From Candidatus Nanoarchaeia archaeon (lineage in GTDB: Archaea; Nanobdellota; Nanobdellia; Pacearchaeales; GW2011-AR1), in contig DATDSF010000020.1 of NCBI GenBank assembly GCA_035291345.1, forward strand, positions 1 through 61,439: 61,439 nt of DNA, written 5' to 3'. A model generated the notes under the pieces. The model was not told the DNA's origin and did no database searches. It worked only from the letters and a program-made list of their open reading frames with translations. Positions 13,906-47,517 of this stretch are shown one piece after another. The position numbers were made by a program, and so were the translations under genes. Every line of letters begins with the position of its first letter. Within the stretch, counting starts at the first letter, position 1.

Positions 13906-14976
13906 CTAGCCCTTATTCTTATAGAATTCTTTTATCTTACTTACGATAAATTCCTGTTCTTCTTCACTAAGATCAGTAGACGATGGTAAATAAATACCCC
14001 TATGTCCAAGATCAGCAGCCTTTAACCCTTTCCATTTGTCATCATAATACATGGCCTGCTGACTCATAGGCTTAAAAAATTGTCTAGTTTCTATTCCATG
14101 ACTTTCTAAGAAACTTTGTAATTTATGTTTATCATTTTGATCGTCTAACAAGATGTCATACATCCATAAAACATTTCTTTTCGGAAGAACTTTAATTCCA
14201 GTTACATCTTTTAATTTTTCATCATATCTGGTTTCTATATCTTTCCTTTTATCAAGTATTTCATCTATTTTTTCAAGCTGGGCGAGAGCAACACCTGCCT
14301 GCATATTAGTCATTCTAAAATTATAAGCAACTTTTTTATGCACAAATGTATGGTCTGCTGTAAAAGCCATACCTCTCAAATGCACCATTTGTTTTGATAA
14401 ATGATCATCATTTGTAACGCAAATTCCACCCTCTCCAGATGAAATAATTTTATTTGCATATAAAGAAAAACAAGCTATGTCTCCTACAGGTTTTATACCA
14501 TGTGCTTCTGCAGAATCTTCCACAACTCTTAAGTTATAATTATGTGCAATATCCATAATTTTATCCATATTACATCTTCTTCCATAAATATGTACAGGCA
14601 TAATTGCTCTTGTTTTAGGTGTAATTTTTTCTTCGATTAAATCAGCATTGATATTAAGATCATCTCCACAATCCACAAAAACAGGAGTTGCTCCTGTGTA
14701 AGTTACAGCCCATGCACTTGCAACCATTGTAAATTCAGGTACAATTACTTCATCACCATCTCTTATTCCCAATGCTCTTAAAGCTAGAGTTAGAGCAGCT
14801 GTTCCAGATGAACATGCTATACCATGTTTATATTCATTAAATTCAGCAAACTTTTTCTCAAATTCTTTTACAAAATTACCCTGAGAAGAGATCCAACCAT
14901 CTTTGATTGCCTTTGTTACATATTCTAATTCATTTCCTTTTAAATATGGTCTTGAAACAGGGTATTTATATTCCAT
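13906..14976 (-). CDS. DegT/DnrJ/EryC1-family PLP-dependent sugar aminotransferase (GDP-perosamine synthase candidate)
   Basis: 356 aa with GNELEYV, SSGTAALTLAL and the PLP-lysine context SLYANKIISSGEGG. Lies directly downstream of gmd. Confidence 0.88.
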   Translation of the reverse strand: MEYKYPVSRPYLKGNELEYVTKAIKDGWISSQGNFVKEFEKKFAEFNEYKHGIACSSGTAALTLALRALGIRDGDEVIVPEFTMVASAWAVTYTGATPVFVDCGDDLNINADLIEEKITPKTRAIMPVHIYGRRCNMDKIMDIAHNYNLRVVEDSAEAHGIKPVGDIACFSLYANKIISSGEGGICVTNDDHLSKQMVHLRGMAFTADHTFVHKKVAYNFRMTNMQAGVALAQLEKIDEILDKRKDIETRYDEKLKDVTGIKVLPKRNVLWMYDILLDDQNDKHKLQSFLESHGIETRQFFKPMSQQAMYYDDKWKGLKAADLGHRGIYLPSSTDLSEEEQEFIVSKIKEFYKNKG

Positions 14977-14984: not shown

Positions 14985-16112
14985 TTACACAAATTTATTA
15001 TTTTGATCCTTTAATATTTTGATTATATCATCAACAACTACTGCTTTATGTTTAAGGTAATACTCTTTTTCAGCTAGTTTTAAATCATGTTCACACATTT
15101 TCTTTACAAGTTCTTTAAAGCTTATTTCAGGAACCCATCCTAATTTTTCTTTAGCCTTTGTAGGATCAGATAACAAAAGATCTACTTCTGTTGGCCTGAA
15201 ATATCTAGGATGGATTTTTACAATCACCTTGCCATTTTCATCTAAATATTCTTCATCAAATCCTGATTTGCCATTTGACTTTATGTTAAGTCCAAGCTCT
15301 TTAGCAGATTCTTCTAAGAAATGTCTTACACTATATTTTTCTCCAGTACCTATAATATAATCTTCTGCTTTATCTTGCTGTAGAATCATCCACATAGCTC
15401 TCACATAATCTTTAGCATGCCCCCAGTCTCTTTCAGAATCTAAATTACCTAAATAAATTTCTTTCTGTAAACCCATTTTTATTCTTGCTAATGATCTAGT
15501 TATTTTTCTAGTTACAAAACTTTCACCTCTTCTTTCTGATTCATGATTAAACAATATTCCATTACAGGCAAATATCCCATAAGCCTCTCTATAATTTATA
15601 GTTATATGATGGGCATAAACTTTAGCACAGGCATATGGGCTTCTTGGATAAAAAGGAGTAGTTTCTTTTTGAGGTGTTTCAACAACTTTCCCAAACATTT
15701 CAGATGAAGAAGCTTGGTAGAATCTGGAATTTGGACATATATTTTTTATAGATTCCAATAGTCTTAATGTTCCTAAAGAAACTGTATTTGTTGTATTCTC
15801 TGGTATATCAAAACTAATTCTAACATGGCTTTGAGCTCCAAGATTATAAACTTCATCAGGCATAACACTTCGAATTATTTTTTCAACAGAGCTCGAATCA
15901 GTTAAATCTCCATAATGTAATATCAAAGATCCTTTATCAACTCCTGTATATCCAGAAGATTTATCAATTTCAGTCAGATGATCAATTCTATCTCTATTTA
16001 CTCCACTAGACCTTCTAACAATTCCATGTACTTCATATCCCTTTTCAATAAGGAATTCAGCAAGATAACTTCCATCCTGTCCTGTAATTCCAGTTATTAG
16101 TGCTTTTTTCAT
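14985..16112 (-). CDS. gmd: GDP-mannose 4,6-dehydratase
   Basis: 375 aa with [42 protein letters not shown] (Ser/Glu catalytic pair), [10 protein letters not shown] (YxxxK) and FNHESERRG. Confidence 0.92.
16056..16091. repeat. 36-nt stretch identical to 19019-19054 (gmd versus Gmd-like domain of the fusion gene)
   Basis: TTCAGCAAGATAACTTCCATCCTGTCCTGTAATTCC occurs in both genes. It encodes [12 protein letters not shown] on the minus strand. Confidence 0.85.
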
Positions 16113-16216: not shown

Positions 16217-17101
16217 CTAGGTAGCCATTTCATCAGGTCTTATGCTTTGAAGTGCTCCTCTTGTAGAATACATTAAATCTACACGCTTACCTGTTCCAGG
16301 AAGCCTACTTGTATTTAAAAGAGTTTGAATATCTCCATATTGTGAAATTAAAACCAATTCTTTATGTTCTCTTTCTCTTTTAGATACTTTCTCCATCCAT
16401 GCTCCACCCTCAAAATATTTATTCGGTACATCTGTAAAAACTAAATGTGAGAAATCCATATCTCCTCTATTTGCGCTCATATATCCACCCACTAAAATTA
16501 TTCTTTTTACACTTGATTTATCAATTCCTAATTCCTCCCTAGATTCTTTTAAAACTTCAGCTTCAAGATTAACATCTATAGGGTTATCTTTGTAAGTTAA
16601 ATGTCCAGTAACTCCATTTAAAGCTCCAGGTAAATCAACATTTTCAGATCTTTCTCCCACTACTATAGATCCTTGAGTTGTAATAATTAACCCCATTACT
16701 CCTGGAGCTCTTGAAAAATAAGCCCACTGGTCATTAAAATCTTTAATACCTTTTTGTTTAAGATTTTCATTTCCTTCAGGACCTCTTTCAAAGTCTTCCC
16801 TAAATGCTAAATAATGTGAAGCTCCAAGACCTAATTTTAAAGTTCCATCAACAAGGCTAGTATAATCTAATCTAAATTTTCTATCATCAAAGTGAGAATT
16901 TGTACCATCAGAAATTTTTCCACTAGCAATTAAATTGTTATGTACATTTTTAACATACCATTCTCTGTTTCTTGGTTGATTAGGATTATTAATATCTGCC
17001 ACACATAATCCTTCTACCCCTCTTACATTTATTCCTTCAACATTTTTTCTTAAAAGAGGAATTCCTTCTCTTGTTTGTTCAACAGCATAATCATATGTCA
17101 T
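16217..17101 (-). CDS. Hypothetical protein with a degenerate Nudix-like box
   Basis: 294 aa. The segment LKESREELGI approximates the REUXEEXGU Nudix core, but the upstream Gly/Glu spacing is off. The N-terminal ~150 aa are unassigned. Confidence 0.35.
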   Translation of the reverse strand: MTYDYAVEQTREGIPLLRKNVEGINVRGVEGLCVADINNPNQPRNREWYVKNVHNNLIASGKISDGTNSHFDDRKFRLDYTSLVDGTLKLGLGASHYLAFREDFERGPEGNENLKQKGIKDFNDQWAYFSRAPGVMGLIITTQGSIVVGERSENVDLPGALNGVTGHLTYKDNPIDVNLEAEVLKESREELGIDKSSVKRIILVGGYMSANRGDMDFSHLVFTDVPNKYFEGGAWMEKVSKREREHKELVLISQYGDIQTLLNTSRLPGTGKRVDLMYSTRGALQSIRPDEMAT

Positions 17102-17142: not shown

Positions 17143-17622
17143 TTATTGATTATTTTTAGAATTATTCTTTATCCAATTATCTAATAATACTGAACTTGAT
17201 CTTATTTTTCCTCCACCTACATTAAAAACTATTTTGCATCCTACTTTTTCACAAGCTTCCCTTTCTTCTTTTGGAATTGTTTCTAAGCTATTTTTATCCC
17301 CGCCATTGGCAAAAACATCCGGTTTAATATGAATTATTGCATCACTAATATCACCATCACCAATTACTACAACTTCATCAACACATCTTAGTTCTTTTAT
17401 TATTGCTACTCTATCTTCGACTGGCATAAATGGAGCACCCTTTTTTTTAACTAAAAATTCATCACCATCAATTACAACAATTAACTTATCTCCCAATGCT
17501 TTAGCAGCCTGAAATGATAACAAATGTCCTAGATGTAATGGGTCAAAACCTCCACTTACCATTACAACCCTTTTTTTAGTTTCAGTTTTTTCCTCACCAT
17601 TTGTTTTTAATTCTTCGTCCAT
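17143..17622 (-). CDS. Cytidylyltransferase-family nucleotidyltransferase (TagD / HldE domain II-like)
   Basis: 159 aa with VVMVSGGFDPLHLGH (HxGH motif) and the C-terminal IRSSSVLL motif. Confidence 0.75.
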   Translation of the reverse strand: MDEELKTNGEEKTETKKRVVMVSGGFDPLHLGHLLSFQAAKALGDKLIVVIDGDEFLVKKKGAPFMPVEDRVAIIKELRCVDEVVVIGDGDISDAIIHIKPDVFANGGDKNSLETIPKEEREACEKVGCKIVFNVGGGKIRSSSVLLDNWIKNNSKNNQ

Positions 17623-17630: not shown

Positions 17631-18089
17631 TTAATTACTAAATACTCCAGAAGCAATTAAAGCTCTTTTAACATAAGGGTGATAGTTCTCATCAATTTTA
17701 TTAACCCACTTATATTCAGACTGAGTGTTATCTAATTTAACACTTCCACCAATATATTTAGCCAGATAAACTCTAGCTACATAATGAACACCTGTTTTAA
17801 CATTAGGAAAATCTGTTTCATCAAATATAATATCTTCCATCATAATAAGTTTTTCAACCTTTATTTCCAAACCAACTTCTTCTATAGCTTTTCTTAAAGC
17901 TGTTTTTTCAGGCATTTCTCTCTTAAACTGTCTCCCTCCAGGAATCCACCACTGGTCTTTACAAGGATCTTGAGTTCTCTTTGCCAAAAATACTTCTCCT
18001 TTATCATTATAAATAACAACATCAACAGCTAGAATTATAGAATGTTCGAGAATTCCCTCATATATTTCACTTGGTATTTTTGAAGCCAT
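17631..18089 (-). CDS. Nudix hydrolase (GDP-mannose mannosyl hydrolase-like)
   Basis: The ORF track starts at TTG 18098; ATG 18089 (MASKIP) is more likely. Nudix box GRQFKREMPEKTALRKAIEEVGL. Sits in a gmd neighbourhood. Confidence 0.65.
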   Translation of the reverse strand: MASKIPSEIYEGILEHSIILAVDVVIYNDKGEVFLAKRTQDPCKDQWWIPGGRQFKREMPEKTALRKAIEEVGLEIKVEKLIMMEDIIFDETDFPNVKTGVHYVARVYLAKYIGGSVKLDNTQSEYKWVNKIDENYHPYVKRALIASGVFSN

Positions 18090-18094
18090 AAATC

Positions 18095-20293
18095 TCAATT
18101 ACTCTTTAACTTTATTTCTTTATCAATTTCTCTTTGTTTGTGTTCTATTAATAATTTAATTAGTTCTTTAAATTTTACTTTAGGTTCAAAGCCTAATTTT
18201 TCCCTTGCTTTGGAAATATCTCCAACCAATTCAACTTGTTTACCAGGTCTTGCAAACTTTGGATCTATTTCTACCAATCCTTTTGGATTTAATCCGACTA
18301 ATCCAAATGCTTCATCAACTAATTCTTGAATTAAATGAGATTCTCCTGTTGAGATAACAAAATCTTCAGGTTTATCATATTGCATTATTTTCCAGGCAGC
18401 TTCCATATATTCTTTTGCATATCCAATATCGACTGGTAAATCTAATGCACCAATAGTCATTTTATCCTGCATTCCTTTAGAAATTCTTACAGCAGATGAG
18501 CAGATTTTATGCAATAAGTACTCCTCACTTCTTCTTGGAGAATCATGATTGAAAAATATTGCAGTTGAAACAAACATTCCATGCACATCTCGATAATACT
18601 TAGCTAAGTAAAATGCTAATAACTTTGCACATGCATAAGGACTTTGTGGAGCAAATAAAGTTTTTTCATTTTGGGGAACTTGAATAGCATCCCCAAACAT
18701 TGTAGAGCTTAATGGTTGGAAGAATTTTATTTTAGGATTAACCTGTTTAATTATTTCTAAAACCCTTCCAACAGAAGCAGCAGTTATGTCATATGAATAA
18801 GCAGGTATTTCATAGCTCCATGCAACATGGTCCTGATCAGCTTCATTATATATTTCATCAGGCTGTACACTTGATATTATTCTATATAAAGAAGTTTGGT
18901 CAGCAAGATCTCCCTTATGTAATGTTATTTGGTTAACAATGTGATTTATATTTCTAAGATTTCCAGTTGCAGATCTTCTGTACATTCCATGCACTTCATA
19001 TCCTTTATCAAGTAAAACTTCAGCAAGATAACTTCCATCCTGTCCTGTAATTCCTAGTATTAAAGCTTTCTTTTTTTTATCTTTGATATTTTCAATTCCC
19101 TGATGACTATAAATCTCTACACTTGGAAGAGCAAAAATAAATTTCCCTCCATTTTTCAGCCATTCCTCTTCTCTCTTAATAAAAGAATCTCTGAAGGCAT
19201 AAGGTAAAACTAAAAAATAATCCGCATCTTTCTTTGCCTCACTTTCTTTGATTATTGGTATATCAGAACCAACAGTAAATTTCCCAAATTTTTCTTCACT
19301 TATTTCTGCAATTCCACTAATTTCTTTCTCCCCTAAACCATAATACTGTAAAATAGTATTCCCTTTTGTTGAAGCTCCGTAACCATAAATTTTTTTTCCT
19401 TCACTAATAAGCTGCTTTATTAACTTCGCACAATCTTCTTTATTTTTCTTAAGTCTTTCAGCAAATTCTAAATAACTTTCTTTGGTGATATTTTCATTGT
19501 AATTAATACTCCCATTTTTATAATGCCTTGCAAATAATCTGTAACTTCCCCCATTTATTGAATTTTCTTCAACTTTAAAAATTTCAAGACCATTTCTTTC
19601 AAATAATTCCTTTAATGATTGATAAGAATAATATTCAATATGCTCATGACATATGTTTCCTATGTCATTTTTTTCAAGCATTGGTTTTGAAGTCATTAAC
19701 TGAGCAACAAATATTCCATTATTGTCTAAAACTTTAACAGCATCTCTAATAAACTGATTCGGATCATCCATGTCATAAAACATACCTATAGCTGTAATTA
19801 TTTTAGCTTTTTTCTCACCAACACTTTTTAGATAATTTTCATAATTCCAAAAATCAGCAATTGGTATATCTACCCTTTTTTTCATTTCATCAATAAGATT
19901 TGTTGCAGGTTCGCAACCAACCTTTACAACATTTTTGGGATAAAAACTTAAAAGAGTTCCATCATTAGCTCCTATATCAAGTACAATTTCTCCATCTTTC
20001 AAATCAACCATTTTACTAGAAACCTCGGAAATTTCTTTCAAATCATTAATAATGATTTGATTTAGTCCTGATCTATACCAATAATGGCCAGAATACATTA
20101 GTTCTTGTGGAGCTGTATGCCTTAGTTGAACCAATGTACAATTATCACACCAGACAAGATCTAATGGAGCATTACCTATATTGTCTCCTTTAGATTTTAC
20201 AAAAGTAGAAATATATAAATCTCCCAAAGAAAATAAATCTGTTAGTTTATCAGATCCACAGATTCTGCATTTATCTATCTCCTTTATACTCAT
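18095..20293 (-). CDS. Fusion protein: Zn-ribbon NDP-hexose C-methyltransferase (TylCIII-like) + Gmd-like short-chain dehydrogenase/reductase
   Basis: 732 aa. N-terminal part has CRICGS...WCDNC, VLDIGANDGTLL and IYGYGASTKGNT (C-methyltransferase C-terminal domain). C-terminal part, from about aa 417, has [37 protein letters not shown] and FNHDSPRR, but LSSTMFG replaces SSSEMFG. Confidence 0.8.
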   Translation of the reverse strand: MSIKEIDKCRICGSDKLTDLFSLGDLYISTFVKSKGDNIGNAPLDLVWCDNCTLVQLRHTAPQELMYSGHYWYRSGLNQIIINDLKEISEVSSKMVDLKDGEIVLDIGANDGTLLSFYPKNVVKVGCEPATNLIDEMKKRVDIPIADFWNYENYLKSVGEKKAKIITAIGMFYDMDDPNQFIRDAVKVLDNNGIFVAQLMTSKPMLEKNDIGNICHEHIEYYSYQSLKELFERNGLEIFKVEENSINGGSYRLFARHYKNGSINYNENITKESYLEFAERLKKNKEDCAKLIKQLISEGKKIYGYGASTKGNTILQYYGLGEKEISGIAEISEEKFGKFTVGSDIPIIKESEAKKDADYFLVLPYAFRDSFIKREEEWLKNGGKFIFALPSVEIYSHQGIENIKDKKKKALILGITGQDGSYLAEVLLDKGYEVHGMYRRSATGNLRNINHIVNQITLHKGDLADQTSLYRIISSVQPDEIYNEADQDHVAWSYEIPAYSYDITAASVGRVLEIIKQVNPKIKFFQPLSSTMFGDAIQVPQNEKTLFAPQSPYACAKLLAFYLAKYYRDVHGMFVSTAIFFNHDSPRRSEEYLLHKICSSAVRISKGMQDKMTIGALDLPVDIGYAKEYMEAAWKIMQYDKPEDFVISTGESHLIQELVDEAFGLVGLNPKGLVEIDPKFARPGKQVELVGDISKAREKLGFEPKVKFKELIKLLIEHKQREIDKEIKLKSN
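19019..19054. repeat. Second copy of the 36-nt identical stretch
   Basis: Same 36-mer as 16056-16091, read directly from the sequence. Confidence 0.85.
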
Positions 20294-20371: not shown

Positions 20372-21550
20372 TTACTTTAAAGTCTTTAATCTCTTTTTGT
20401 TATTTATGAAATCATTAATTGCAGACATAACTTCATTTAATTCAATAAGATTCATACACCATACTCCTCCTGGCTTTATGCATGGCTTAGACCAATCACA
20501 TGGGCAACTAATTGTTTTTCCATTACAATGAATATCATGGTAAATTATTTTAGTATTTCTTAAAGGTCCAAAAACTTTTCTATCAACTGGACCTGAAAGC
20601 TCTATAAGATTTCCACCACTAACCCAGCTAATATCAGTTGCAACCCCATCATTTGCAATAACACAATCAGCCTTACCAAAAATAACAGACATTCCTCTTA
20701 AATTAAAGTTAACAACTGGTACACAAAAACTTTTTCTATTATTAGAAAGCCTTTTAATCATTCCTTCATCATTTCCAGCCCCCGAAATTAATATTTTATG
20801 TTTGGGATATTTTTTATGGAACAAATCTATAAGTTTATCAAATTTCTTTTCAGGCCATCTTTTTGTATCACTTGTAGCCCCTGGCGAAAAAACTACATAT
20901 TTTTCAACTTTATTTTTCTTAAGAAAATCATTAGCAAGTTTTTTATCATTTTCATCAACTTCTATTTTAGGCCAGATATTATCTATCTTAATATCAAAAG
21001 CTCTTTCAATAAGTCTAACATGCTCTTTTATTACATGTGTTATTTCATCATAAAAAACAGGGTGTGTTAAAAACACTTTTCCACCATTAATATTATAATA
21101 ACTAACACGATTTTTTATTATTGGAAGAAATAAAAAGAAAAACATATTTAGTTTACTTCTTCTAAGATCAATTCCCACATCAAATTTTTCTTTTCTAATT
21201 TTCCTAAATACTTTAATATAGTCTTTTAAAGCCTGCAGATTTTTTCTCCTCCAAAAAAGATCTATTTCAATTATCTTATCAACATTTTTATCTTTTTCAA
21301 TTATAGTTCTGTTTCCATCAGTAGCAAGAACACAAATCTCAATATTGGGAAAGTGTTTCTTTAGTTCTCTGAAAACAGTTGTAGAATAAACCATATCTCC
21401 TAAATGGTCGTTTCTTATAAAAAGAACTTTTTTAGGATTTTTAATAGGCTTAAATTTATCACTTTTAAAAAAAGCAGTTATTTTATCAAAGTAATAATCA
21501 GAACTTCCAGAATTTTTATCTCTAATTTTGTATAATTGGGAACCTTTCAT
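20372..21550 (-). CDS. GT9-like glycosyltransferase (heptosyltransferase family)
   Basis: 392 aa. VLFIRNDHLGDMVYSTTVFRELKKHFP is a GT9 N-terminal signature. PGATSDTKRWPEKKF matches the family's conserved (R/K)WP motif. Confidence 0.7.
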   Translation of the reverse strand: MKGSQLYKIRDKNSGSSDYYFDKITAFFKSDKFKPIKNPKKVLFIRNDHLGDMVYSTTVFRELKKHFPNIEICVLATDGNRTIIEKDKNVDKIIEIDLFWRRKNLQALKDYIKVFRKIRKEKFDVGIDLRRSKLNMFFFLFLPIIKNRVSYYNINGGKVFLTHPVFYDEITHVIKEHVRLIERAFDIKIDNIWPKIEVDENDKKLANDFLKKNKVEKYVVFSPGATSDTKRWPEKKFDKLIDLFHKKYPKHKILISGAGNDEGMIKRLSNNRKSFCVPVVNFNLRGMSVIFGKADCVIANDGVATDISWVSGGNLIELSGPVDRKVFGPLRNTKIIYHDIHCNGKTISCPCDWSKPCIKPGGVWCMNLIELNEVMSAINDFINNKKRLKTLK

Positions 21551-21559: not shown

Positions 21560-21928
21560 TTATGCAGAAGGATGATTCTTTTTTATCTCTTTAAATCCAA
21601 TTCCTGTAGACTCCACGATTATATTTTTTGCCTGACTTCTCTGCTTGTTTACAAGTTCTGTTTCTAAATACAACTCTCCAATTTTAGCATAATTCTTTTC
21701 ACCCTCTCTTTCTTTATTCATAGCCTCTAACAAATCCCATTCTTTTTTATTAATTTCATATAATTCTTCAATCCAAGAATCCTCAATTTTCACACCCTTA
21801 TTTTCAAATTCACTAAGTGCCTTTTTTAGAGCAGAAAATTCATCATGTAACTCTGGTTTTCCAATTCTTTCAATTTTGAGTTTAACAATACTTATCCTAT
21901 CAATTATTTCAGCAGGTGGTACTTCCAT
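21560..21928 (-). CDS. Small helical hypothetical protein
   Basis: 122 aa, predicted helical and charged. Ends 9 nt upstream of the GT9 gene in the same gene train. Confidence 0.5.
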   Translation of the reverse strand: MEVPPAEIIDRISIVKLKIERIGKPELHDEFSALKKALSEFENKGVKIEDSWIEELYEINKKEWDLLEAMNKEREGEKNYAKIGELYLETELVNKQRSQAKNIIVESTGIGFKEIKKNHPSA

Positions 21929-21972: not shown

Positions 21973-22872
21973 CTAATACCATTCAGTTAATTTTCTATTT
22001 ATCAATTTTTCTAGATCTTTGGTGTCTTTTTCATAGACTTTTCTTATTTTTTCGAACAATTCAGAACTCATTTGCTCCTTCTTCACCTTTTTTTTATTTG
22101 CTTTATTTATAGACTCAAAGAAACTATTAATTTTTGTAGATCTTTTGATAAAAGAAATTATTTTTCCCAAACCCACATTTTCAAGAAATAAAGTTATTTT
22201 TCTCAGAAAATTTATAATGTATCTTAAAGACTTGACTTTTGTAGCCTGTTGAGGATTTACCTTTTCATGCAAAGATTTAGGTTTAAAATTAGGGTTAACT
22301 CCTAGGAATCTATAAAGTTCTTTGACAACTTTCTCAGGATTTTTATTTATATCTTCATAAATAATGACATGAATATTCTTCCTAGGAAATAAATCAAAAT
22401 AAACCTTCAAGTGTTTGTAATACATGCCCCTTTCCATATAATTGTCTAGATCATTTTCCTTCTTCTTTCTGAAAAAAGCTTGCTCAAAATCCTCTTTCTC
22501 TTTTAGATCACTTAATTTTATATTATTCCAGTCAGAGTAGGCCCTTGAAACAGGTTCTCTTAAAGAAACTATTAGCTTAATATTTGGAAAGTACTTTTTT
22601 ATTATTTTACTAGCATCTGGATCATATAAATAATAAGTACTAAATTCTCCCTTTTTTTTACCCTTTGAGTTTTTAAATAACTCAAAATACCCATTTATAC
22701 CTCTTATTTCATACTCACTTTTTGTGTTATTTGCCCTAGTTTTTGAGAAATAATTAAGCTCTTTAGTGTATGGAAAAAATATTTCTGGATGTTCCATTAA
22801 ACACTCAGCAATCCAGGTTGTTCCACTTCTTGCAGCCCCTATACCAGCAAAATCTATCTCAATGTTACTCAT
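21973..22872 (-). CDS. Sulfotransferase-domain protein (PAPS-dependent type)
   Basis: 299 aa with a 5'-PSB-like loop GIGAARSGTTWI and a 3'-PB-like motif SLREPVSRAYS. Confidence 0.72.
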   Translation of the reverse strand: MSNIEIDFAGIGAARSGTTWIAECLMEHPEIFFPYTKELNYFSKTRANNTKSEYEIRGINGYFELFKNSKGKKKGEFSTYYLYDPDASKIIKKYFPNIKLIVSLREPVSRAYSDWNNIKLSDLKEKEDFEQAFFRKKKENDLDNYMERGMYYKHLKVYFDLFPRKNIHVIIYEDINKNPEKVVKELYRFLGVNPNFKPKSLHEKVNPQQATKVKSLRYIINFLRKITLFLENVGLGKIISFIKRSTKINSFFESINKANKKKVKKEQMSSELFEKIRKVYEKDTKDLEKLINRKLTEWY

Positions 22873-36600: not shown

Positions 36601-39372
36601 TTACCTGCCAACTTCTTTAAGTTTTTCGTCAGGGTATTCTGTAACTAGGTAATCTGGATTAAACTTTATATTTTGGGGGTAATTTATTTCCCATATTTTA
36701 ATAGGACCAAGGAAACTTCCTTGGTAATAAACAAAGTCATCTAATTCTAAGCCTTGGTTTCTTAAATCAGCAATAATTAAATTCGGTTCGCTGTGAACAA
36801 GCTTAAAATTTCCTTCTTCTTCAAATAAATATTTTCTTACAAGTAAACCATCAACAGTTCTTTCACTTAAGAAAAGAAGAGCCCCTTTATCATTAACTTG
36901 GATTTGATTGTTACTTTGTTGAATTGTTTCAACGATAAACACTCCTGAATTAAGACCTGTGTTGAAGTTATATAGCTTATTCTTATAATAGAGATATTTT
37001 AGTGGGATATTAACCTGAGTCCCATCTCTTTGAATGAAAATAATTTCAGGCTGTTTTAATATTGAATTATTATTCTCAATTATTTCATCAATTACAAAAC
37101 CACCTATTACAGATGTTTCTTTAGCAAAGAATGTTTTTGTTCCATTTTCTTCCCATATTATATCATCATCAAGTCCCGACCCTCCAGTATATACGTAAGA
37201 AAGTCCATTAGAAGTCTCTCTAGTTCCACGAGCATCCATAACAAAAGTAGGGATATAACTAAGTCTATCATAATTTTCATCAGATCCAATACTACTAAAT
37301 GCAGAATATTTACCTATGTCAGTGGAATCTATAAGTAAATGTGTTGAATTATGAGTATAAAGAAACTCTAAGGCTGTTCTATCATCAGGAGTTGTTAAAA
37401 CATGCCTCCCCATAAGGTAATTCCAATAAACAATAGCATTACCTCCATCTAAAACAGTCGCCCTTTTTCCTATACTCTGTACCCAATAACCATAATCCCA
37501 CCAATGTGCAAATACAGCGTCTTCTTCAGTATTGTTTCTTACCCAGTCCATGGCTTTCTGCCACTGCCAATTATATACTGAAGGATAAAATCCACTAGCC
37601 TGAGACTTACTATAGTTATAAAAACTAAACGCACTAAACAAAGCAGCCAAAACAACAATAATCGCTAAAATTATAGCAATTATTTTATTTGTTTCATCTT
37701 TTTTATTTTTTACACTTAAAACACTTGATACTACAAAATAACCAACAATTGCACTTGTTGGGGGAACAAGCATCATAATAAATCTAACTCCACTTCTTGC
37801 AGCTAAAATACTTACAAAAAACAAAGTGAAAATAACTATATATCCAAAATCAATCTTAAGACCTTCTTTATAACTATTTTTGTTATATTTATATAATAAA
37901 AATAAAGACCATCCAAGGAATAAGATTATACCTCCAAAATACACCATAAGACTTAAACCACTTTCCCCATTTAACTGGCTATTTGGAGAATATTTACTTA
38001 ACATTAAGCAAATAATAGAAATAAAATAAACTAATGTTAAAGAAATTCTATCCTTAAACTCAAATTTCTTTATCATATTGTAGAATAAGAAACATGAACC
38101 TATAATAAACAGCCAGAAATATAAAGCTATTTTTGCTAAAACAGGCCCAAAACTACCTGTTAATTCACTGAAATACGGCTGTCTGTTTTCAGCAACTGTA
38201 ACTGTAAATCTATTAGCACTTAAAGGTTTTAATAAAGCTGTAAAAGCATCATTAATCTGATAGGAAATAAAATCTATACCAAATATTAATATTGATAAGA
38301 TTACTCCAATTAAACCAATTAAAACTAAAGATGTTATCTGTCTTGGTATTTTATACTTATCATTTATTTTCTTGAATATTGTAATTTTATCATATAAAAA
38401 TAAATCAAATGCAATCAATAAAATTAAAGCAAATATAGGGATTGTGGTTGTTGATGTTAAAAGATTGTATAAACTATATCTTGTTGAAAATATCATAGCA
38501 ATAGGAGCGAATAAAATAACCCATGAAAAATACCCTACAAATCTTTTTTTATCTATAAGACCTAACATAAAAAATACAAATACTGAGAGGCTGATTGTAG
38601 CAAAAACAAATGTTACCCCTCCCCATATCAATCCAAGTAATGCTGTGGAAATCCCTGCCAATCCTCCAAATATTCCGGATTTTAGGTAATCTTTTGACTT
38701 AAAAGAACATATAAAAAAATACAAAACAAGAAATATAAACAAGAAACCTGCAGCTTCTTTTTCAGGTATTCCTGCAATTGTTCTTGGTAAAATTTCAGGC
38801 AATATAGCTAAAAATAATGTAGATATTAAAGCAATGGTACTAGAAGCATATTTATTTTCAAAACTATTTTCAAATATTTTTCTTACAAGAAAAAAGAAAG
38901 CAATACAAGTAAGTGCAAACATAAAAACAGGGAAAATTATAGCGGCATAAGTTATACTAACTTCACTATTAAAAATAGAAAGAATCTGATAAAACCATGC
39001 AATTAAGTAAGACAATAATTTCCCCTCACCAGCAGTATTATATCCTAATGGGATATATCTCATATTGTCAATAATCATTAACTTACCATGTTCAACAATA
39101 TATTCTGCCCATCTTAAAAATAAAAATGGGTCTAAGTCAGGTCCAAGCGTCCAGGTACCAGTTGTTATATCTTTAAGGTTGTTTATATTTCGTGTTCTTA
39201 TAAAAACAGCAATAAATGTGATAAACGCAAGTATAATGTATATGATTATATTCCAGAAATAACTAATTTTAATTTTGAAAACACTCGCTAATTTTTCTTT
39301 TCTTTTCTCAACTATTTCTTTTGCTTCTTTTTCATCTGTTGTATGTTTTTCACTAGATTCACTCATCTTCAC
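36601..39372 (-). CDS. aglB: Archaeal oligosaccharyltransferase AglB (STT3 family)
   Basis: 923 aa with 13 or so N-terminal TM segments. First-loop acidic motif GPDLDPFLF and the catalytic signature HWWDYGYWV. Start is either GTG 39372 or ATG 39366. Confidence 0.93.
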   Translation of the reverse strand: MKMSESSEKHTTDEKEAKEIVEKRKEKLASVFKIKISYFWNIIIYIILAFITFIAVFIRTRNINNLKDITTGTWTLGPDLDPFLFLRWAEYIVEHGKLMIIDNMRYIPLGYNTAGEGKLLSYLIAWFYQILSIFNSEVSITYAAIIFPVFMFALTCIAFFFLVRKIFENSFENKYASSTIALISTLFLAILPEILPRTIAGIPEKEAAGFLFIFLVLYFFICSFKSKDYLKSGIFGGLAGISTALLGLIWGGVTFVFATISLSVFVFFMLGLIDKKRFVGYFSWVILFAPIAMIFSTRYSLYNLLTSTTTIPIFALILLIAFDLFLYDKITIFKKINDKYKIPRQITSLVLIGLIGVILSILIFGIDFISYQINDAFTALLKPLSANRFTVTVAENRQPYFSELTGSFGPVLAKIALYFWLFIIGSCFLFYNMIKKFEFKDRISLTLVYFISIICLMLSKYSPNSQLNGESGLSLMVYFGGIILFLGWSLFLLYKYNKNSYKEGLKIDFGYIVIFTLFFVSILAARSGVRFIMMLVPPTSAIVGYFVVSSVLSVKNKKDETNKIIAIILAIIVVLAALFSAFSFYNYSKSQASGFYPSVYNWQWQKAMDWVRNNTEEDAVFAHWWDYGYWVQSIGKRATVLDGGNAIVYWNYLMGRHVLTTPDDRTALEFLYTHNSTHLLIDSTDIGKYSAFSSIGSDENYDRLSYIPTFVMDARGTRETSNGLSYVYTGGSGLDDDIIWEENGTKTFFAKETSVIGGFVIDEIIENNNSILKQPEIIFIQRDGTQVNIPLKYLYYKNKLYNFNTGLNSGVFIVETIQQSNNQIQVNDKGALLFLSERTVDGLLVRKYLFEEEGNFKLVHSEPNLIIADLRNQGLELDDFVYYQGSFLGPIKIWEINYPQNIKFNPDYLVTEYPDEKLKEVGR

Positions 39373-42503: not shown

Positions 42504-43865
42504 TTACTTAATAATTTTCCTCAGAGCAGGATACATATCCATTGAGTGCTGCTGAGCAATATTTTGATAGAACTGATACATAATCATTATTACTAACAAT
42601 AACGAAGTTCCTCCAACTAAAGCTCCTGAAATATCTGAAATAGCTGAAAGTAGTCCTATTGCAGCTCCACCCATTACAGTAAGTGGGAAAATATACCTCT
42701 CCAATACACTCTCTAGAATTCTTTCATCTTTTCTAAATCCTGGAATTGTTAAACCAGAAGACATAATATTTTTTGCCTGACTTTGTGCATCCATACCGCT
42801 TGTTTTAACCCAAAATATAGCAAAAATTATACTAAAAAATATGTAAAATGATAAATGACCTAAAACCTGTAAAAACATATAATTTGCAAAACTTCCTGTA
42901 ATTATAAGATTAGGAATATTAATTGGACTTATCCATAAAGATAATCCTGATATAGGTATTCCTTGTGAAAATCCACCAATAATTGTAGGTTTCCCAAGCC
43001 AACTTTCTAATAATCCTCCTGCTAACTGTATATTCGCAGCTAAGGCAGCAACTAATATCACTGGTAAAACAGAAGCATAAAAGAAATTTATAGGCCATTT
43101 CATTCCATAACCTCTTAACCTATCAAAAGAAAGAGGGATTTCCACTTTTAGCGATTGAGCCCATACAACAATAAAGAAAATAACTATTGTTATTATAATT
43201 GTTAAAGCAGCAAGGAAAGCTCCTGTAGTGTTTGCAGTAATTATAGAATTAATTAAAACTAATACCTGACCGCTTGGTGCAAATGTACCTTCATTACTTA
43301 AAAATTGGAATAGTCTTGTAAATATAGTTCTGCTAACTCCTGCAGCTATAAACAATGAAGTTCCAGACCCAAAGCCCCATTTAGTTGTAATTTCATCCAT
43401 TAAAAATATCGCAAGTCCTCCAAAACAAAGTTGAAGAATTACAATCCCTGTATATCCTGGGGCTGCCTGAAGTCCATTCATTAAAACATAAACACTTGCT
43501 TCAAAAATTATAAAAAATAATACAAGAATCTTTTGAATTCCTTGGAAGAATTTTTTCCCTTCAGGATTTGTTGTATCTATATTAAGAATCTTTGACCCAA
43601 CAAGTAATTGTAGGATAATAGATGCCATTACTATAGGTCCTATACCTAGAGAAATAAGACTTCCAAAATCTGCTCCAAGTATAACAGCTAAACTTTCAAA
43701 TCTTTCAAGACTATTATTCGCTAAGCCGTATAATGGAATATTTGCAAGTATAAAAAAAGCAACCAATACAATTAATGTCCATTTTGCTTTTACATTAAAA
43801 CTAAGTTTCTTTTCAGTAGGATTTTCTATTTCTGGAAGATACTGGAAGATATTTTTTATATTCAT
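42504..43865 (-). CDS. secY: Preprotein translocase subunit SecY
   Basis: 453 aa with 10 TM segments. N-terminus LPEIENPTEKKLSFNVKAKWT. Follows rpl15 at the end of the ribosomal operon. Confidence 0.92.
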   Translation of the reverse strand: MNIKNIFQYLPEIENPTEKKLSFNVKAKWTLIVLVAFFILANIPLYGLANNSLERFESLAVILGADFGSLISLGIGPIVMASIILQLLVGSKILNIDTTNPEGKKFFQGIQKILVLFFIIFEASVYVLMNGLQAAPGYTGIVILQLCFGGLAIFLMDEITTKWGFGSGTSLFIAAGVSRTIFTRLFQFLSNEGTFAPSGQVLVLINSIITANTTGAFLAALTIIITIVIFFIVVWAQSLKVEIPLSFDRLRGYGMKWPINFFYASVLPVILVAALAANIQLAGGLLESWLGKPTIIGGFSQGIPISGLSLWISPINIPNLIITGSFANYMFLQVLGHLSFYIFFSIIFAIFWVKTSGMDAQSQAKNIMSSGLTIPGFRKDERILESVLERYIFPLTVMGGAAIGLLSAISDISGALVGGTSLLLVIMIMYQFYQNIAQQHSMDMYPALRKIIK

Positions 43866-43888
43866 ATTTACTCTTCTTCTAAACCTTA

Positions 43889-44314: not shown

Positions 44315-44315
44315 G

Positions 44316-44507
44316 TTAATAAAATTCCTCCTCTTCCAGTAATTTCTCTTCCATCTCTTCAGCAATAGCTTTAGGAACTTTTATAAATTTTCCAATTTCG
44401 CCACATTCAGGACATTCTTCAGGAGAAATTTTAAAATAATCTGTAAATCCACATTCACATTCCCACATAACTTTTTTTACACTTGGAATCAAAGTTTTCT
44501 TTGCCAT
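44316..44507 (-). CDS. Small Zn-ribbon protein (63 aa) inserted between rpl30 and rpl15
   Basis: Sequence MAKKTLIPSVKKVMWECECGFT...CPECGEIGKF with an acidic tail EEMEEKLLEEEEFY. Zero nt after the rpl30 stop and 1 nt before the rpl15 ATG. Confidence 0.65.
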   Translation of the reverse strand: MAKKTLIPSVKKVMWECECGFTDYFKISPEECPECGEIGKFIKVPKAIAEEMEEKLLEEEEFY

Positions 44508-47516: not shown

Positions 47517-47517
47517 T

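What the first reader, a model, noticed from the sequence alone, without database searches (positions are those of the whole stretch)
18095..20293. Fusion of a sugar C-methyltransferase to a Gmd-like SDR that has lost the dehydratase glutamate
Seen: one 732-aa ORF joins a Zn-ribbon/TylCIII-type NDP-hexose C-methyltransferase to a domain clearly paralogous to GDP-mannose 4,6-dehydratase. The methyltransferase part has CRICGS..WCDNC, VLDIGANDGTLL and IYGYGASTKGNT. The SDR part has [19 protein letters not shown] and FNHDSPRR. The bona fide gmd 2 kb away has QASSSEMFG, whereas the fused copy has QPLSSTMFG. The Glu that aligns with the catalytic acid/base of E. coli Gmd is therefore Thr. Established knowledge: TylCIII-type enzymes methylate 4-keto-6-deoxy nucleotide sugars, and Gmd-like SDRs without dehydratase activity (Rmd type) act as 4-keto reductases. 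Inference: Gmd makes GDP-4-keto-6-deoxymannose, and the fusion then C-methylates and reduces it to a branched-chain GDP-6-deoxy-C-methylhexose. I do not know of such a route in archaea. Caveat: the domain junction falls on an A8/T8 homopolymer (19071-19078, encoding DKKKKA). The fusion could therefore be an assembly or indel artefact joining two genes.
Basis: partly seen in the sequence, partly recalled or inferred. Interest (0 to 1): 0.68.

Follow-up and report, generated by a model that had tools for sequence, protein, structure and literature searches.

The report
C-methyltransferase fused to Glu-less Gmd paralog
This is a real two-domain archaeal enzyme joining a sugar C-methyltransferase to a relative of GDP-mannose dehydratase that has lost its dehydration residue; it probably makes a rare methyl-branched surface sugar, and the same uncharacterised gene pair is widespread in bacteria, archaea and phages, where it is routinely mislabelled as a dehydratase.

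Summary
ORF 18095-20293 (-) encodes 732 aa: a TylCIII/MtmC-type NDP-hexose C-methyltransferase (MT), a short disordered linker, and a Gmd-like SDR. The Ser-Tyr-Lys triad is kept, but the Gmd catalytic Glu is Thr531.

The fusion is not a homopolymer artefact. Three near-identical but distinct sequences carry the same A8 and an intact ORF. At least 39 diverged homologs are fused in frame, and those checked at DNA level have no long A-run. The A-run is the ancestral MKKKALI start of the SDR gene.

- The SDR is not Rmd-type. It belongs to one Gmd-derived clade with Asn/Thr/His at the Glu position.
- That clade is an almost obligate partner of the MT: 27/30 SDR-seeded loci have it directly upstream, against 0/9 Gmd controls.
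- The pair is usually unfused and occurs in SAR11, CPR, Planctomycetes, DPANN and phages.
- A perosamine-synthase-like DegT (24/27) and a Nudix (14/27) travel with it; a true Gmd does so in only 11/27.

Best reading here (about 0.45): Gmd, then C-methylation, then C4 reduction. Strong rival (about 0.33): the SDR oxidises C4 without dehydration and feeds the MT. This is an uncharacterised variant of known chemistry. Interest is moderate.

The parts
18095..20293 (-). Whole fused gene (732 aa plus stop): NDP-hexose C-methyltransferase, linker, Glu-less Gmd-like SDR
   Evidence: ORF. Pfam domains. At least 39 full-length fused homologs. AF2 model with pLDDT 87.7.
20093..20269 (-). Zn-ribbon domain of the MT (residues 9-67; Cys9, Cys12, Cys49, Cys52)
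   Evidence: PF08421. The four Cys are invariant in 36 fused homologs.
19580..20008 (-). SAM-binding Rossmann domain of the MT (residues 96-238). It contains VLDIGANDG and the HEH motif; Glu217/His218 are at 19640-19645.
   Evidence: PF13489. Glu217/His218 align with KijD1 E226/H227, which correspond to TcaB9 E224/H225. D106, G108, N110-G112, H216, E217 and H218 are invariant.
19124..19486 (-). C-methyltransferase C-terminal (NDP-sugar-binding) domain, residues 270-390
   Evidence: PF08484, 116 bits. Foldseek TM about 0.86 to MtmC, KijD1 and TcaB9.
19073..19123 (-). Inter-domain linker (residues 391-407). It includes the A8 run at 19071-19078, which encodes the Lys-run.
   Evidence: pLDDT is below 50 for residues 399-405. 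The K-run matches the conserved MKK(K)ALI N-terminus of unfused SDR genes, whose ATG overlaps the MT stop codon.
18098..19072 (-). Gmd-derived extended SDR domain (residues 408-732): GITGQDG, RRS, Ser529, Thr531 in place of Glu, Tyr553, Lys557, NHDSPRR
   Evidence: PF16363, 317 bits. TM 0.94 and rmsd 1.4 A to Gmd 1n7g. Catalytic columns. Clade-specific substitutions.
18701..18703 (-). Thr531 codon (ACA), at the position of the Gmd catalytic Glu (E. coli Glu135)
   Evidence: Glu in 27/27 Gmd-type sequences; Asn 32, Thr 6 and His 1 in 39 MT-SDR fusions.
17631..18098 (-). Nudix hydrolase gene (weakly Gmm-like). By the ORF listing TTG start it overlaps the fusion's stop by 4 nt. It is a recurrent member of the module.
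   Evidence: It lies between MT and SDR in bacterial cassettes, and is fused to the MT or to MT-SDR in other proteins.
14985..16112 (-). Canonical GDP-mannose 4,6-dehydratase (SSE motif) in the same operon
   Evidence: TIGR01472, 530 bits, above the cut-off of 415. Motif.
13906..14976 (-). DegT-family aminotransferase, GDP-perosamine-synthase-like, immediately downstream of gmd
   Evidence: 273 bits to Caulobacter perosamine synthetase 3bn1, with the Lys-containing NKII motif aligned. A DegT co-occurs with the pair in 24/27 loci.
20372..21550 (-). GT9-family glycosyltransferase immediately upstream; candidate transferase for the product
   Evidence: PF01075. It is also adjacent to the fusion in L012, L007 and the P0016 locus.

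Best explanation
**What it is.** The gene encodes a genuine bifunctional nucleotide-sugar enzyme. It arose by fusion of a widely conserved, co-directional gene pair.

**N-terminal half.** This is a Zn-ribbon, SAM-dependent NDP-4-keto-hexose C-methyltransferase of the TylCIII/MtmC/TcaB9 type.

**C-terminal half.** This is a paralog of GDP-mannose 4,6-dehydratase. It keeps the NADP-type Rossmann motifs and the Ser-Tyr-Lys redox triad. It has lost the single Glu that Gmd needs for beta-elimination, so it can only do C4 oxidation or reduction.

**Proposed pathway in this archaeon.**
1. The stand-alone Gmd in the same operon makes GDP-4-keto-6-deoxymannose.
2. The MT domain deprotonates a carbon next to the keto group and methylates it. 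By analogy this is C3; C5 is not excluded.
3. The SDR domain reduces the C4 keto group with NADPH.
4. The product is a GDP-6-deoxy-C-methylhexose of the evalose or 6-deoxy-3-C-methyltalose type. A neighbouring glycosyltransferase, possibly the GT9, would install it in a surface glycan.

**Shown here:** the architecture, the residues, conservation of the pair, and the operon context.

**Inferred:** the GDP substrate, the site of methylation, and the direction of the redox step.
For: **The fusion is real**
- At least 39 fused homologs at 50-79% identity and 97-100% coverage.
- Three near-identical but distinct sequences share the A8 run and the intact ORF.
- Homolog junctions are in frame without a long A-run.
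- AF2 gives two confident domains and a disordered linker.

**The MT is competent**
- All three TylCIII-type Pfam domains are present.
- 141 bits to MtmC, and TM about 0.86 to MtmC, KijD1 and TcaB9.
- The four Zn Cys, the SAM motif and the Glu217/His218 pair are invariant.

**The SDR is not a dehydratase**
- Published signatures place the acid/base of every known NS-SDR 4,6-dehydratase right after the catalytic Ser/Thr. For Gmd this is [ST]SE, with Glu as the sole extra residue (PMC8987622; PMC3584063).
- Here the motif is SST. Across the clade it is SS[N/T/H] in 39/39, against Glu in 27/27 Gmd-type sequences. Ser, Tyr and Lys are kept.

**Support for a reductase role**
- The Gmd scaffold can reduce the 4-keto product: three characterised Gmds have Rmd side activity (bioRxiv 10.1101/854612; PMC3539893).
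- A true Gmd lies in the operon here and in 6/6 fused loci with full flanks.
- Independent reverse-order fusions of a Glu-bearing Gmd to the same MT family link this MT family to the Gmd product.
- The NADP-type RRS motif is kept. Pocket-lining motifs are heavily remodelled relative to Gmd, which suggests a substrate other than GDP-mannose.
- The SDR is an obligate MT partner: 27/30 against 0/9 controls.
Against: - No biochemical data exist for any member of the clade.
- A canonical Gmd lies within 10 kb in only 11/27 cellular loci (5/21 unfused) and in 0/17 phage loci.
- MT-Nudix-SDR trios exist with neither Gmd nor DegT nearby (L030, L031).
- A perosamine-synthase-like DegT also consumes a 4-keto group. 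It accompanies the pair in 24/27 loci, which a simple MT-then-KR pathway does not explain.
- In other clades the MT's SDR partner is the keto-generating dehydratase.
- The clade has lost the phosphate-binding Arg of the RDWG motif (Val/Ile in 38/38). It has also replaced the invariant Gmd Glu of FRPAEVD, with Lys in 28/38. GDP specificity is therefore assumed, not shown.
- The role of the conserved Nudix is unexplained.
Confidence: 0.45

Rival explanations
1. **Keto-generating partner.** The Glu-less SDR oxidises C4 of GDP-mannose (or another NDP-hexose) without dehydrating it, and so supplies the 4-keto substrate for the MT. Two outcomes are possible:

(a) It takes the hydride back after methylation. 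This 'borrowed-hydrogen' C-methylation would give GDP-3-C-methylmannose.

(b) The methylated 4-keto sugar is transaminated by the co-conserved DegT, giving a 4-amino-4-deoxy-3-C-methylhexose.

In this window both this route and the Gmd (6-deoxy) route could run and share the downstream enzymes.
For: - The pair usually lacks a canonical Gmd nearby: 16/27 cellular loci and 17/17 phage loci have none.
- Self-contained MT-Nudix-SDR trios exist.
- A Per-like DegT travels with this SDR in 24/27 loci. By my own knowledge, such genes normally sit beside gmd.
- In three other configurations the MT's partner is the Glu-bearing, keto-generating enzyme.
- Oxidation of C4 by bound NADP+ is exactly Gmd's first half-reaction, and only the elimination residue is gone.
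- Precedent: Cj1427 is a GDP-heptose C4-dehydrogenase. In some C. jejuni clusters it coexists with a 4,6-dehydratase and shares downstream enzymes (PMC10680097).
- 3-C-methyl-D-mannose, with the 6-OH retained, occurs in an H. pylori O-antigen (PMC12961483).
- A physical fusion makes most sense if an unstable intermediate shuttles between the two sites.
Against: - All fused loci with full flanks, including this window, do carry Gmd.
- The NADP-type cofactor motif favours reduction in vivo. The oxidising precedents I recall use NAD+: ArnA and WbpB from my own knowledge, and Cj1427, whose NADH is recycled with alpha-ketoglutarate.
- Heavy remodelling of pocket motifs is unexpected if the substrate were still GDP-mannose.
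- Release and recapture of a keto intermediate by an SDR has no precedent.
- Sub-model (a) leaves the DegT association unexplained.
Confidence: 0.33
2. **Non-canonical 4,6-dehydratase.** The SDR still dehydrates, using relocated acid/base residues. Candidates are the clade-invariant Asp486 and Asp488 in NEADQDHV, which replaces Gmd's NLAAQSHV. The cassette would then be the ordinary dehydratase -> C-methyltransferase -> 4-aminotransferase route to a 4-amino-4,6-dideoxy-3-C-methylhexose of the kansosamine or sibirosamine type.
For: - It would use SDR, MT and DegT in the textbook order, and would explain Gmd-less cassettes.
- Two new invariant acidic residues appear in the loop after strand beta4. 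From my own knowledge, that loop forms one wall of the sugar pocket in related SDRs.
- Different dehydratase families use different acid/base pairs (PMC8987622).
Against: - All known NS-SDR 4,6-dehydratases place the acid/base directly after the catalytic Ser/Thr. This clade has Asn, Thr or His there.
- By this reading the protein would be redundant with the true Gmd encoded 2 kb away.
- I could not measure distances in the model, so the proximity of the Asp residues to C5/C6 is untested.
Confidence: 0.08
3. **Inert SDR domain.** The SDR domain is catalytically inactive. It acts as a nucleotide-sugar-binding or oligomerisation module that presents substrate to the MT.
For: - It has lost the Glu, the phosphate-binding Arg of RDWG and the last Arg of the RR loop.
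Against: - The Gly-rich motif, Ser, Tyr, Lys and NH[ED]SPRR are invariant or nearly so across a deep clade. That pattern points to selection on catalysis.
Confidence: 0.05
4. **Assembly artefact.** The fusion is an assembly or indel error at the A8 homopolymer that joins two adjacent genes.
For: - In most relatives the two genes are separate and overlap as ATGA just before an A-rich MKKK start.
- A simulated A9 run would give an MT of 424 aa and a TTG-start SDR of 333 aa.
Against: - The window and two contigs from different runs differ by SNPs but share A8 and the intact ORF.
- At least 39 diverged fused homologs exist. The four checked at DNA level lack long A-runs at the junction.
- The window has neither an MT stop codon nor an ATG for the SDR at the junction. 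A simulated A7 run leaves no usable SDR start.
Confidence: 0.01

Closest known systems
TylCIII / MtmC / TcaB9 / KijD1 NDP-4-keto-hexose C3-methyltransferases (PDB 4rv9, 3ndi, 5t64)
   Same: - The same three-domain architecture: Zn ribbon, SAM Rossmann domain, and C-terminal sugar-nucleotide domain.
- TM about 0.86.
- The Glu-His pair and one Tyr of the TcaB9 active site are retained.
   Different: - Only 21-25% identity.
- The known enzymes use dTDP-2,6-dideoxy or 3-amino sugars in actinomycete antibiotic pathways.
- Two residues differ: TcaB9 Tyr222 corresponds to Cys215, and His181 to Asp174.
- This MT is fused or paired with a Gmd-like SDR and is presumably GDP-linked.
[quoted passage not shown]
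   Same: - Closest relative of the SDR half: 291 bits, 37-45% identity, TM 0.94-0.96.
- GxxGxxG, GxxRR, the Ser/Tyr/Lys triad and NHxSPRR are retained.
   Different: - The catalytic Glu is Thr here, and Asn or His in relatives.
- The last RR-loop Arg is Asn.
- NLAAQSHV has become NEADQDHV.
- The Arg of RDWG is Val or Ile, and the Glu of FRPAEVD is Lys.
- It falls below the NCBIfam equivalog cut-off.
[quoted passage not shown]
   Same: - The same extended-SDR fold (TM 0.94).
- It carries out the reaction proposed for the SDR half, namely C4 reduction of a GDP-4-keto-6-deoxyhexose.
   Different: - Only 22% identity, and 84 and 54 bits.
- The fused SDR is an independent, Gmd-derived lineage and not a member of the Rmd family.
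- Its substrate would carry a C-methyl branch.
[quoted passage not shown]
   Same: - A GDP-sugar enzyme that oxidises C4 without dehydration.
- It can coexist with a 4,6-dehydratase in one cluster and share downstream enzymes (PMC10680097).
- It is the model for the main rival explanation.
   Different: - It does not appear among the 60 best PDB sequence matches listed for the SDR half.
[quoted passage not shown]
- It is not paired with a methyltransferase.
Proposed GDP route to virenose in Coxiella burnetii (CBU_0689 Gmd, CBU_0691 TylCIII-like MT, CBU_0688 GMER-like reductase); also D-evalose and 3-C-methyl-D-mannose as natural products
   Same: - The same logic of Gmd -> C3-methylation -> C4 reduction on a GDP-sugar (PMC3539893).
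- The predicted products are known natural sugars (PMC12961483).
   Different: - The Coxiella route is an in silico proposal.
- It uses separate enzymes and a GMER-type reductase, not a Glu-less Gmd paralog.
Multidomain nucleotide-sugar enzymes formed by gene fusion (for example bi- and trifunctional UDP-rhamnose synthases)
   Same: - Consecutive steps around an NDP-4-keto sugar are joined in one polypeptide by fusion of neighbouring genes (PMC8987622).
   Different: - Those fusions join SDR dehydratase and epimerase/reductase domains.
- I found no description of a C-methyltransferase-SDR fusion in the literature searched.

Membership tests
[quoted passage not shown] | Glycine-rich GxxGxxG cofactor motif | tested here: met
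   GITGQDG at residues 414-420. G414, G417, D419 and G420 are invariant. The feature list comes from PMC3584063.
[quoted passage not shown] | GxxRR motif at the start of the RR loop | tested here: met
   HGMYRRS is present. R439 is invariant, and the second position is R or K in relatives.
[quoted passage not shown] | Complete RR loop, including the terminal Arg (E. coli Arg43) | tested here: not met
   Arg43 corresponds to Asn448. It is Asn in 100% of the fused clade and Arg in 96% of Gmds.
[quoted passage not shown] | Catalytic triad Ser/Thr ... YxxxK | tested here: met
   Ser529, Tyr553 and Lys557 align with Thr133, Tyr157 and Lys161.
[quoted passage not shown] | Glu two residues after the catalytic Ser/Thr ([ST]SE), the acid/base for C5/C6 elimination | tested here: not met
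   Thr531 occupies this position. The clade has Asn 32, Thr 6 and His 1, against Glu in 27/27 Gmd-type sequences. The signature is from PMC8987622.
[quoted passage not shown] | Conserved Arg of NHESPRR that orients substrate and cofactor | tested here: met
   NHDSPRR is present. N582, H583 and S585 are invariant, and R587 and R588 are at least 90% conserved.
[quoted passage not shown] | Score above the curated equivalog cut-off (TIGR01472) | tested here: not met
   324.5 bits against a cut-off of 415. The neighbouring true gmd scores 530.
[quoted passage not shown] | Dehydratase activity on GDP-mannose | not testable with these tools
   This needs an enzyme assay.
TylCIII/TcaB9-type NDP-hexose C-methyltransferase | N-terminal four-Cys Zn-ribbon (PF08421) | tested here: met
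   47 bits, above the cut-off of 31. C9, C12, C49 and C52 are invariant.
TylCIII/TcaB9-type NDP-hexose C-methyltransferase | Class I SAM-binding fold with the DxGxxxG motif | tested here: met
   PF13489 at 48 bits. VLDIGANDG is present, with D106, G108 and N110-G112 invariant.
TylCIII/TcaB9-type NDP-hexose C-methyltransferase | C-methyltransferase C-terminal domain (PF08484) | tested here: met
   116 bits, above the cut-off of 23.5. TM 0.85-0.88 to MtmC, KijD1 and TcaB9.
TylCIII/TcaB9-type NDP-hexose C-methyltransferase | Active-site Glu-His pair (TcaB9 Glu224/His225) and Tyr76 | tested here: met
   E217/H218 and Y71 align with these residues and are invariant. TcaB9 Tyr222 corresponds to Cys215, and His181 to Asp174. 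The residue roles rest on my own knowledge and on the PDB mutant titles.
TylCIII/TcaB9-type NDP-hexose C-methyltransferase | SAM-dependent C-methylation of an NDP-4-keto sugar; the position (C3 or C5) and the nucleotide | not testable with these tools
   This needs an assay with product NMR.
[quoted passage not shown] | Sequence membership: closest to characterised Rmds | tested here: not met
   84 bits (2pk3) and 54 bits (6x3b), against 239-291 bits to Gmds. Identity is 22% in Foldseek.
[quoted passage not shown] | Residue at the Gmd-Glu position in characterised Rmds | not tested
   I could not obtain an Rmd alignment. King et al. 2009 is not held.
GalE-like redox-only NS-SDR signature ([ST]...Yx3K with no adjacent acid/base) | No acidic or basic catalytic residue after the catalytic Ser/Thr | tested here: met
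   The motif is SST here and SSN in most relatives. E. coli GalE has SAT (my own knowledge). The signature table is in PMC8987622. This is a match in mechanism class only; by similarity the domain is Gmd-derived.

The most novel reading that the evidence does not exclude
The Glu-less Gmd paralog is not a ketoreductase. It is the keto-generating half of a two-enzyme 'borrowed-hydrogen' machine.

1. It oxidises C4 of GDP-mannose with its bound NADP+ and does not dehydrate.
2. It hands the transient 4-keto sugar to the fused or adjacent C-methyltransferase.
3. It then either returns the hydride, giving GDP-3-C-methylmannose (the sugar of the atypical H. pylori O-antigen), or leaves the methylated keto sugar for the co-conserved perosamine-synthase-like DegT.

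This would be a Gmd-independent route to branched, and branched amino, hexoses. It would be shared by SAR11, CPR bacteria, DPANN archaea and phages.
Probability: 0.3. Interest if true: 0.75.

Novelty: new variant of a known kind. Interest (0 to 1): 0.52.

Why it matters
**Annotation.** A large, deep clade is currently annotated as 'GDP-mannose 4,6-dehydratase' (COG1089/K01711). These proteins lack the dehydratase residue and are obligate partners of a sugar C-methyltransferase. Metabolic reconstructions that read them as Gmd are therefore wrong. The affected groups include SAR11, CPR, DPANN and phages.

**Biochemistry.** In the literature I could search, GDP-linked C-methyl-branched sugars have only been proposed in silico. 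This pair, and the natural fusion, which is convenient for expression, gives a direct handle on how sugars such as evalose or 3-C-methylmannose are made. If the rival reading holds, it would reveal a new way to C-methylate an unactivated sugar carbon.

**Biology.** The product is probably a surface-glycan determinant. The cluster also encodes GT9 and GT2 glycosyltransferases, a sulfotransferase and a flippase-type (Polysacc_synt/MurJ) protein, and an AglB oligosaccharyltransferase gene lies about 16 kb away. The pair's presence in phages suggests a role in host-virus surface interactions.

Tried and rejected
**Homopolymer artefact: rejected.**
- I compared independent assemblies and homolog junction DNA.
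- I simulated A7 and A9 run lengths.

**Rmd membership: rejected** on sequence similarity.

**DegT as a ColD/E1-type 3-dehydratase: rejected.**
- Such an enzyme would let DegT, MT and a ketoreductase act in one line.
- The best match is perosamine synthase, with the Lys motif aligned.

**Gene or domain order as a clue to reaction order: uninformative.** The MT also precedes true Gmd in the loci where those two are paired.

**Sources I could not obtain**
- King et al. 2009 (GMD/RMD structures) and Webb et al. 2004 are not held. Rmd's residue at the Glu position and Gmd's GDP contacts therefore rest on other sources or remain untested.
- The TcaB9 mechanism papers were not found.

**Searches that gave nothing useful**
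- The listing of cluster members gave no taxonomy.
- The 294-aa neighbour has no Pfam, NCBIfam or PDB match.
- Literature searches for a GDP-sugar C-methyltransferase found only the in silico virenose paper.

**Limits of the tools**
- I could not measure distances in the AF2 model, because coordinates are not exposed.


Full report
**1.

The window has one uninterrupted ORF at 18095..20293 on the minus strand, 732 aa with an ATG start.

Pfam finds the three domains that define TylCIII-type sugar C-methyltransferases:
- Methyltransf_13 Zn-ribbon, residues 9-67.
- Methyltransf_23, residues 96-238.
- Methyltransf_14, residues 270-390.

These are followed by GDP_Man_Dehyd at residues 411-713 (317 bits).

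The SDR half scores 324 bits on the NCBIfam gmd equivalog model, below the curated cut-off of 415. The gene at 14985..16112 scores 530 and carries [11 protein letters not shown].

HMMER alignments to four Gmd crystal-structure sequences put the fused copy's QPLSSTMFG opposite Q-A-[ST]-[ST]-S-E. Thr531 therefore sits at E. coli Glu135, Ser529 at Thr133, Tyr553 at Tyr157 and Lys557 at Lys161.

**2. The fusion is not an artefact.**

The A8 run is at 19071-19078 and encodes the Lys-run of DKKKKA.

- Contigs assembled from two different sequencing runs of a groundwater project carry the same gene.
- They differ from the window by 18 of 22,199 nt and 23 of 10,181 nt, including 2 nt inside the gene. 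All three share the A8 and the open frame.
- A database search returned at least 39 distinct proteins of 692-1102 aa with the same MT-then-SDR architecture. The 38 listed with at least 93% query coverage are 51-79% identical.
- In four of these, read at DNA level, the junction is in frame and has no long A-run.

Unfused relatives explain the A-run. There the SDR gene begins ATG AAA AAA (AAA) GCN, which encodes MKK(K)ALI. In L044 and L051 the ATG overlaps the MT stop codon as ATGA. The window's homopolymer is that ancestral Lys-run.

The window has neither the MT stop nor an ATG at the junction. A simulated A7 run leaves the SDR without a usable start. A simulated A9 run would require a TTG start and a 77-nt overlap.

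AlphaFold2 with a 36-sequence alignment gives two confident domains (mean pLDDT 87.7). The linker is disordered at residues 399-405, and pTM is 0.55, so the relative orientation of the domains is undefined.

**3. What each half is.**

Foldseek places the SDR half on Gmd structures with TM 0.94-0.96, rmsd 1.3-1.5 A and 37-45% identity. It places the MT half on MtmC, KijD1 and TcaB9 with TM 0.85-0.88 and 21-25% identity.

In the MT, the following are invariant in the fused family:
- the four Zn cysteines;
- the SAM motif;
- Tyr71;
- the Glu217/His218 pair, which corresponds to TcaB9 Glu224/His225.

The SDR half is not Rmd-type. Rmd (2pk3) scores 84 bits and 22% identity, against 291 bits and 44% for Gmd.

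Published Gmd features (PMC3584063; PMC8987622) give a clean membership test.

*Features kept:*
- GxxGxxG.
- GxxRR.
- The Ser/Tyr/Lys triad.
- The NHxSPRR arginine.

*Features lost:*
- The catalytic Glu. According to the review it is the only extra residue Gmd uses for dehydration, and in every known NS-SDR dehydratase the acid/base sits directly after the catalytic Ser/Thr.
- The terminal RR-loop Arg.

**4. The loss of Glu defines a clade.**

In a 66-sequence alignment the Glu column is as follows:

| Group | Sequences | Residue at the Glu column |
|---|---|---|
| PDB Gmds | 3 | Glu |
| Stand-alone Gmds next to fusions | 5 | Glu |
| Reverse-order Gmd-MT fusions | 19 | Glu |
| MT-SDR fusions | 39 | Asn 32, Thr 6, His 1 |

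Ser/Thr and Lys are retained in all the MT-SDR fusions, and Tyr in 38 of 39.

The clade carries further fixed changes:
- NLAAQSHV has become NEADQDHV.
- YQA has become FQP.
- PRSPY has become PQSPY.
- The Arg of RDWG is Val or Ile in 38/38. From my own knowledge of GalE and RmlB, that Arg binds the diphosphate in related SDRs.
- The Glu of FRPAEVD is Lys, Asn, Thr, Arg or Ser.

An NJ tree, without support values, places all Glu-less sequences in one clade derived from within the Gmds. Fused and unfused members are interleaved in its archaeal part, so fusion or fission happened more than once.

An exhaustive HMMER search also finds many stand-alone proteins of about 320 aa with the same FQPxS[SA][NT]xFG signature.

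**5. Organism and local context.**

The window is archaeal. It has archaeal-type uS5, uL6, S4e, uS3 and uL3, plus SecY. An STT3/AglB gene lies at 36601-39372.

The operon on the minus strand reads, in order:
1. sulfotransferase
2. 122-aa unknown
3. GT9
4. the fusion
5. Nudix
6. cytidylyltransferase-like gene
7. 294-aa unknown
8. Gmd
9. DegT
10. GT2

The DegT is closest to GDP-perosamine synthase (273 bits), with the Lys-containing motif aligned.

**6. The pair is widespread and usually unfused.**

A scan of one genome per GTDB species found the MT followed by the Glu-less SDR in a wide range of lineages:
- Archaea: Woesearchaeota, Nanoarchaeia, Iainarchaeum, Micrarchaeaceae and MAGs labelled Methanosarcinales.
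- Candidate-phylum bacteria: Peribacteria, Omnitrophota and Ratteibacteria.
- Other bacteria: Pelagibacter (including a complete genome), Planctomycetes, delta-proteobacteria, Nitrospinota and further lineages.

Counts from these loci:
- Together with the loci fetched earlier, 46 loci have the pair: 8 fused (all in archaeal or archaeal-like MAGs or metagenome contigs) and 38 adjacent.
- Many bacteria share a tightly packed cassette: [~139 aa]-DegT-MT-Nudix-SDR-GT2....
- Among 27 loci with full 10-kb flanks, DegT is present in 24, Nudix in 14 and a canonical Gmd in 11. The Gmd count is 6/6 for fused loci and 5/21 for unfused loci.
- Eight loci pair the MT with a true Gmd instead. Of these, 1/8 has DegT and 0/8 has Nudix.
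- Two loci have MT-Nudix-SDR with neither Gmd nor DegT within 10 kb.

To remove the bias of seeding on the MT, I also seeded a metagenome scan on the SDR. Of 30 Glu-less SDR loci with at least 1.8 kb of upstream sequence, 27 have the MT directly upstream. Among true-Gmd hits in the same scan the figure is 0 of 9.

In viral contigs, 17 phage-like loci carry the MT next to a Thr-type Glu-less SDR. None has a Gmd within 6 kb, and 6 have a DegT.

Other fusions of the same MT exist:
- MT-Nudix.
- MT-cytidylyltransferase.
- A Nudix-MT-SDR triple fusion.
- Reverse-order Gmd-MT.
- MT fused to a different SDR type that keeps the Glu, including in giant-virus MAGs.

**7. Mechanism.**

*Firmly supported:* the protein couples SAM-dependent C-methylation next to a C4 keto group with a C4 redox step. 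That redox step is carried out by a Gmd-derived domain that cannot dehydrate by the known mechanism.

*Not settled:* the direction of the redox step.

The reasons are:
- Gmd is in the operon here and in every fused locus with full flanks.
- Characterised Gmds have an Rmd-like side activity.
- The cofactor motif is NADP-type.
- The sugar pocket is remodelled, as expected for a branched substrate.

The expected product is a GDP-6-deoxy-C-methylhexose. Evalose, 6-deoxy-3-C-methyl-D-mannose, is a known natural sugar.

The comparative data weaken this reading. The pair mostly lacks a nearby Gmd, and it travels with an aminotransferase that also needs a 4-keto group. In other clades the MT's SDR partner is the keto generator.

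The main rival (about 0.33) is that the SDR oxidises C4 without dehydration. It would then either take the hydride back after methylation or leave the keto sugar to DegT. The precedents are Cj1427, which coexists with a dehydratase in some C. jejuni clusters, and the natural occurrence of 3-C-methyl-D-mannose.

Minor rivals:

| Rival | Confidence |
|---|---|
| Relocated-acid/base dehydratase | 0.08 |
| Inert domain | 0.05 |
| Assembly artefact | 0.01 |

**8. Comparison with what is known, and novelty.**

The chemistry class is textbook for dTDP-sugars in actinomycetes: dehydratase, then C-methyltransferase, then ketoreductase or aminotransferase. Multidomain nucleotide-sugar enzymes formed by gene fusion are also known.

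The new elements are:
- A deep, uncharacterised Gmd-derived clade that lost the dehydratase Glu and became an obligate partner of a C-methyltransferase.
- The fusion of that pair in DPANN-type archaea.
- Its presumed GDP linkage.
- Its breadth, across SAR11, CPR, DPANN and phages.
- Its systematic mis-annotation as Gmd (K01711).

The only GDP-route C-methyl sugar pathway I found in the literature is an in silico proposal for Coxiella virenose.

I rate this a new variant of a known kind, with moderate interest (0.52). Interest would rise if the borrowed-hydrogen or C4-dehydrogenase reading proves correct.

Noticed in passing
window 17631-18098 (-); loci L027, L029, L031-L037, L039, L045; proteins P0031, P0046, P0050, P0055, P0058, P0060: A small, weakly Gmm-like Nudix hydrolase is an integral member of the module. 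It sits between the MT and the SDR in bacterial cassettes, and is fused to the MT or to MT-SDR in other organisms. Its role in a C-methyl sugar pathway is unexplained.
   Followed up: partly
window 20372-21550 (-); L012 12162-13295; L007 12277-13413: A GT9 (heptosyltransferase-family) glycosyltransferase lies directly next to the fusion in several DPANN loci. It may be the transferase for the product. A cytidylyltransferase-like gene resembling RfaE domain II is also in the window operon (17143-17622).
   Followed up: partly
window 16217-17101 (-) and 21560-21928 (-): Two operon genes, of 294 aa and 122 aa, have no Pfam or NCBIfam match, and the 294-aa protein has no PDB match either. Both are nevertheless conserved next to the pair: the 294-aa gene in archaeal loci (L008, L013, L014, L016, L023, L050), and the 122-aa gene in L012 (Woesearchaeota) and L070 (Pelagibacteraceae).
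   Followed up: partly
IMG/VR loci L119-L121, L126, L130-L131, L134-L137, L144, L146-L148, L154, L156-L157; L162, L164-L171; L010: Phage-like contigs carry the MT next to a Thr-type Glu-less SDR, with no Gmd within 6 kb. Loci L162 and L164-L171, six of them giant-virus MAGs, carry MT-SDR fusions with a different SDR type that keeps the Glu (NASSSE[IM]YK).
   Followed up: partly
proteins P0063-P0119 (about 770 aa); loci L004 and L005: Reverse-order fusions exist, with a true Glu-bearing Gmd at the N-terminus and the MT at the C-terminus. One example is in a Patescibacteria genome, directly after a B12-binding radical-SAM gene.
   Followed up: partly
proteins P0086, P0093: Homologs of the C-methyltransferase carry intein and homing-endonuclease domains (PF14528, PF14890, PF05204).
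   Followed up: no
SDR half, residues 486/488, about 622, and about 682-686 (window about 18236-18837): The Glu-less clade gained two invariant Asp residues (NEADQDHV). It lost the Arg of RDWG, which becomes Val or Ile. It also swapped the Glu of FRPAEVD for Lys. The nucleotide and sugar pocket is therefore remodelled, and GDP specificity is an assumption.
   Followed up: partly
window 36601-39372 (-), 42504-55826 (-), 21973-22872 (-): An STT3/AglB oligosaccharyltransferase, an archaeal ribosomal-protein/SecY operon and a sulfotransferase flank the glycan cluster. The product may end up in an N-linked or S-layer glycan that is also sulfated.
   Followed up: no
L015 6145-6230: In a Peregrinibacteria locus the short spacer between the MT and SDR genes consists of tandem GGAATATT repeats.
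   Followed up: no
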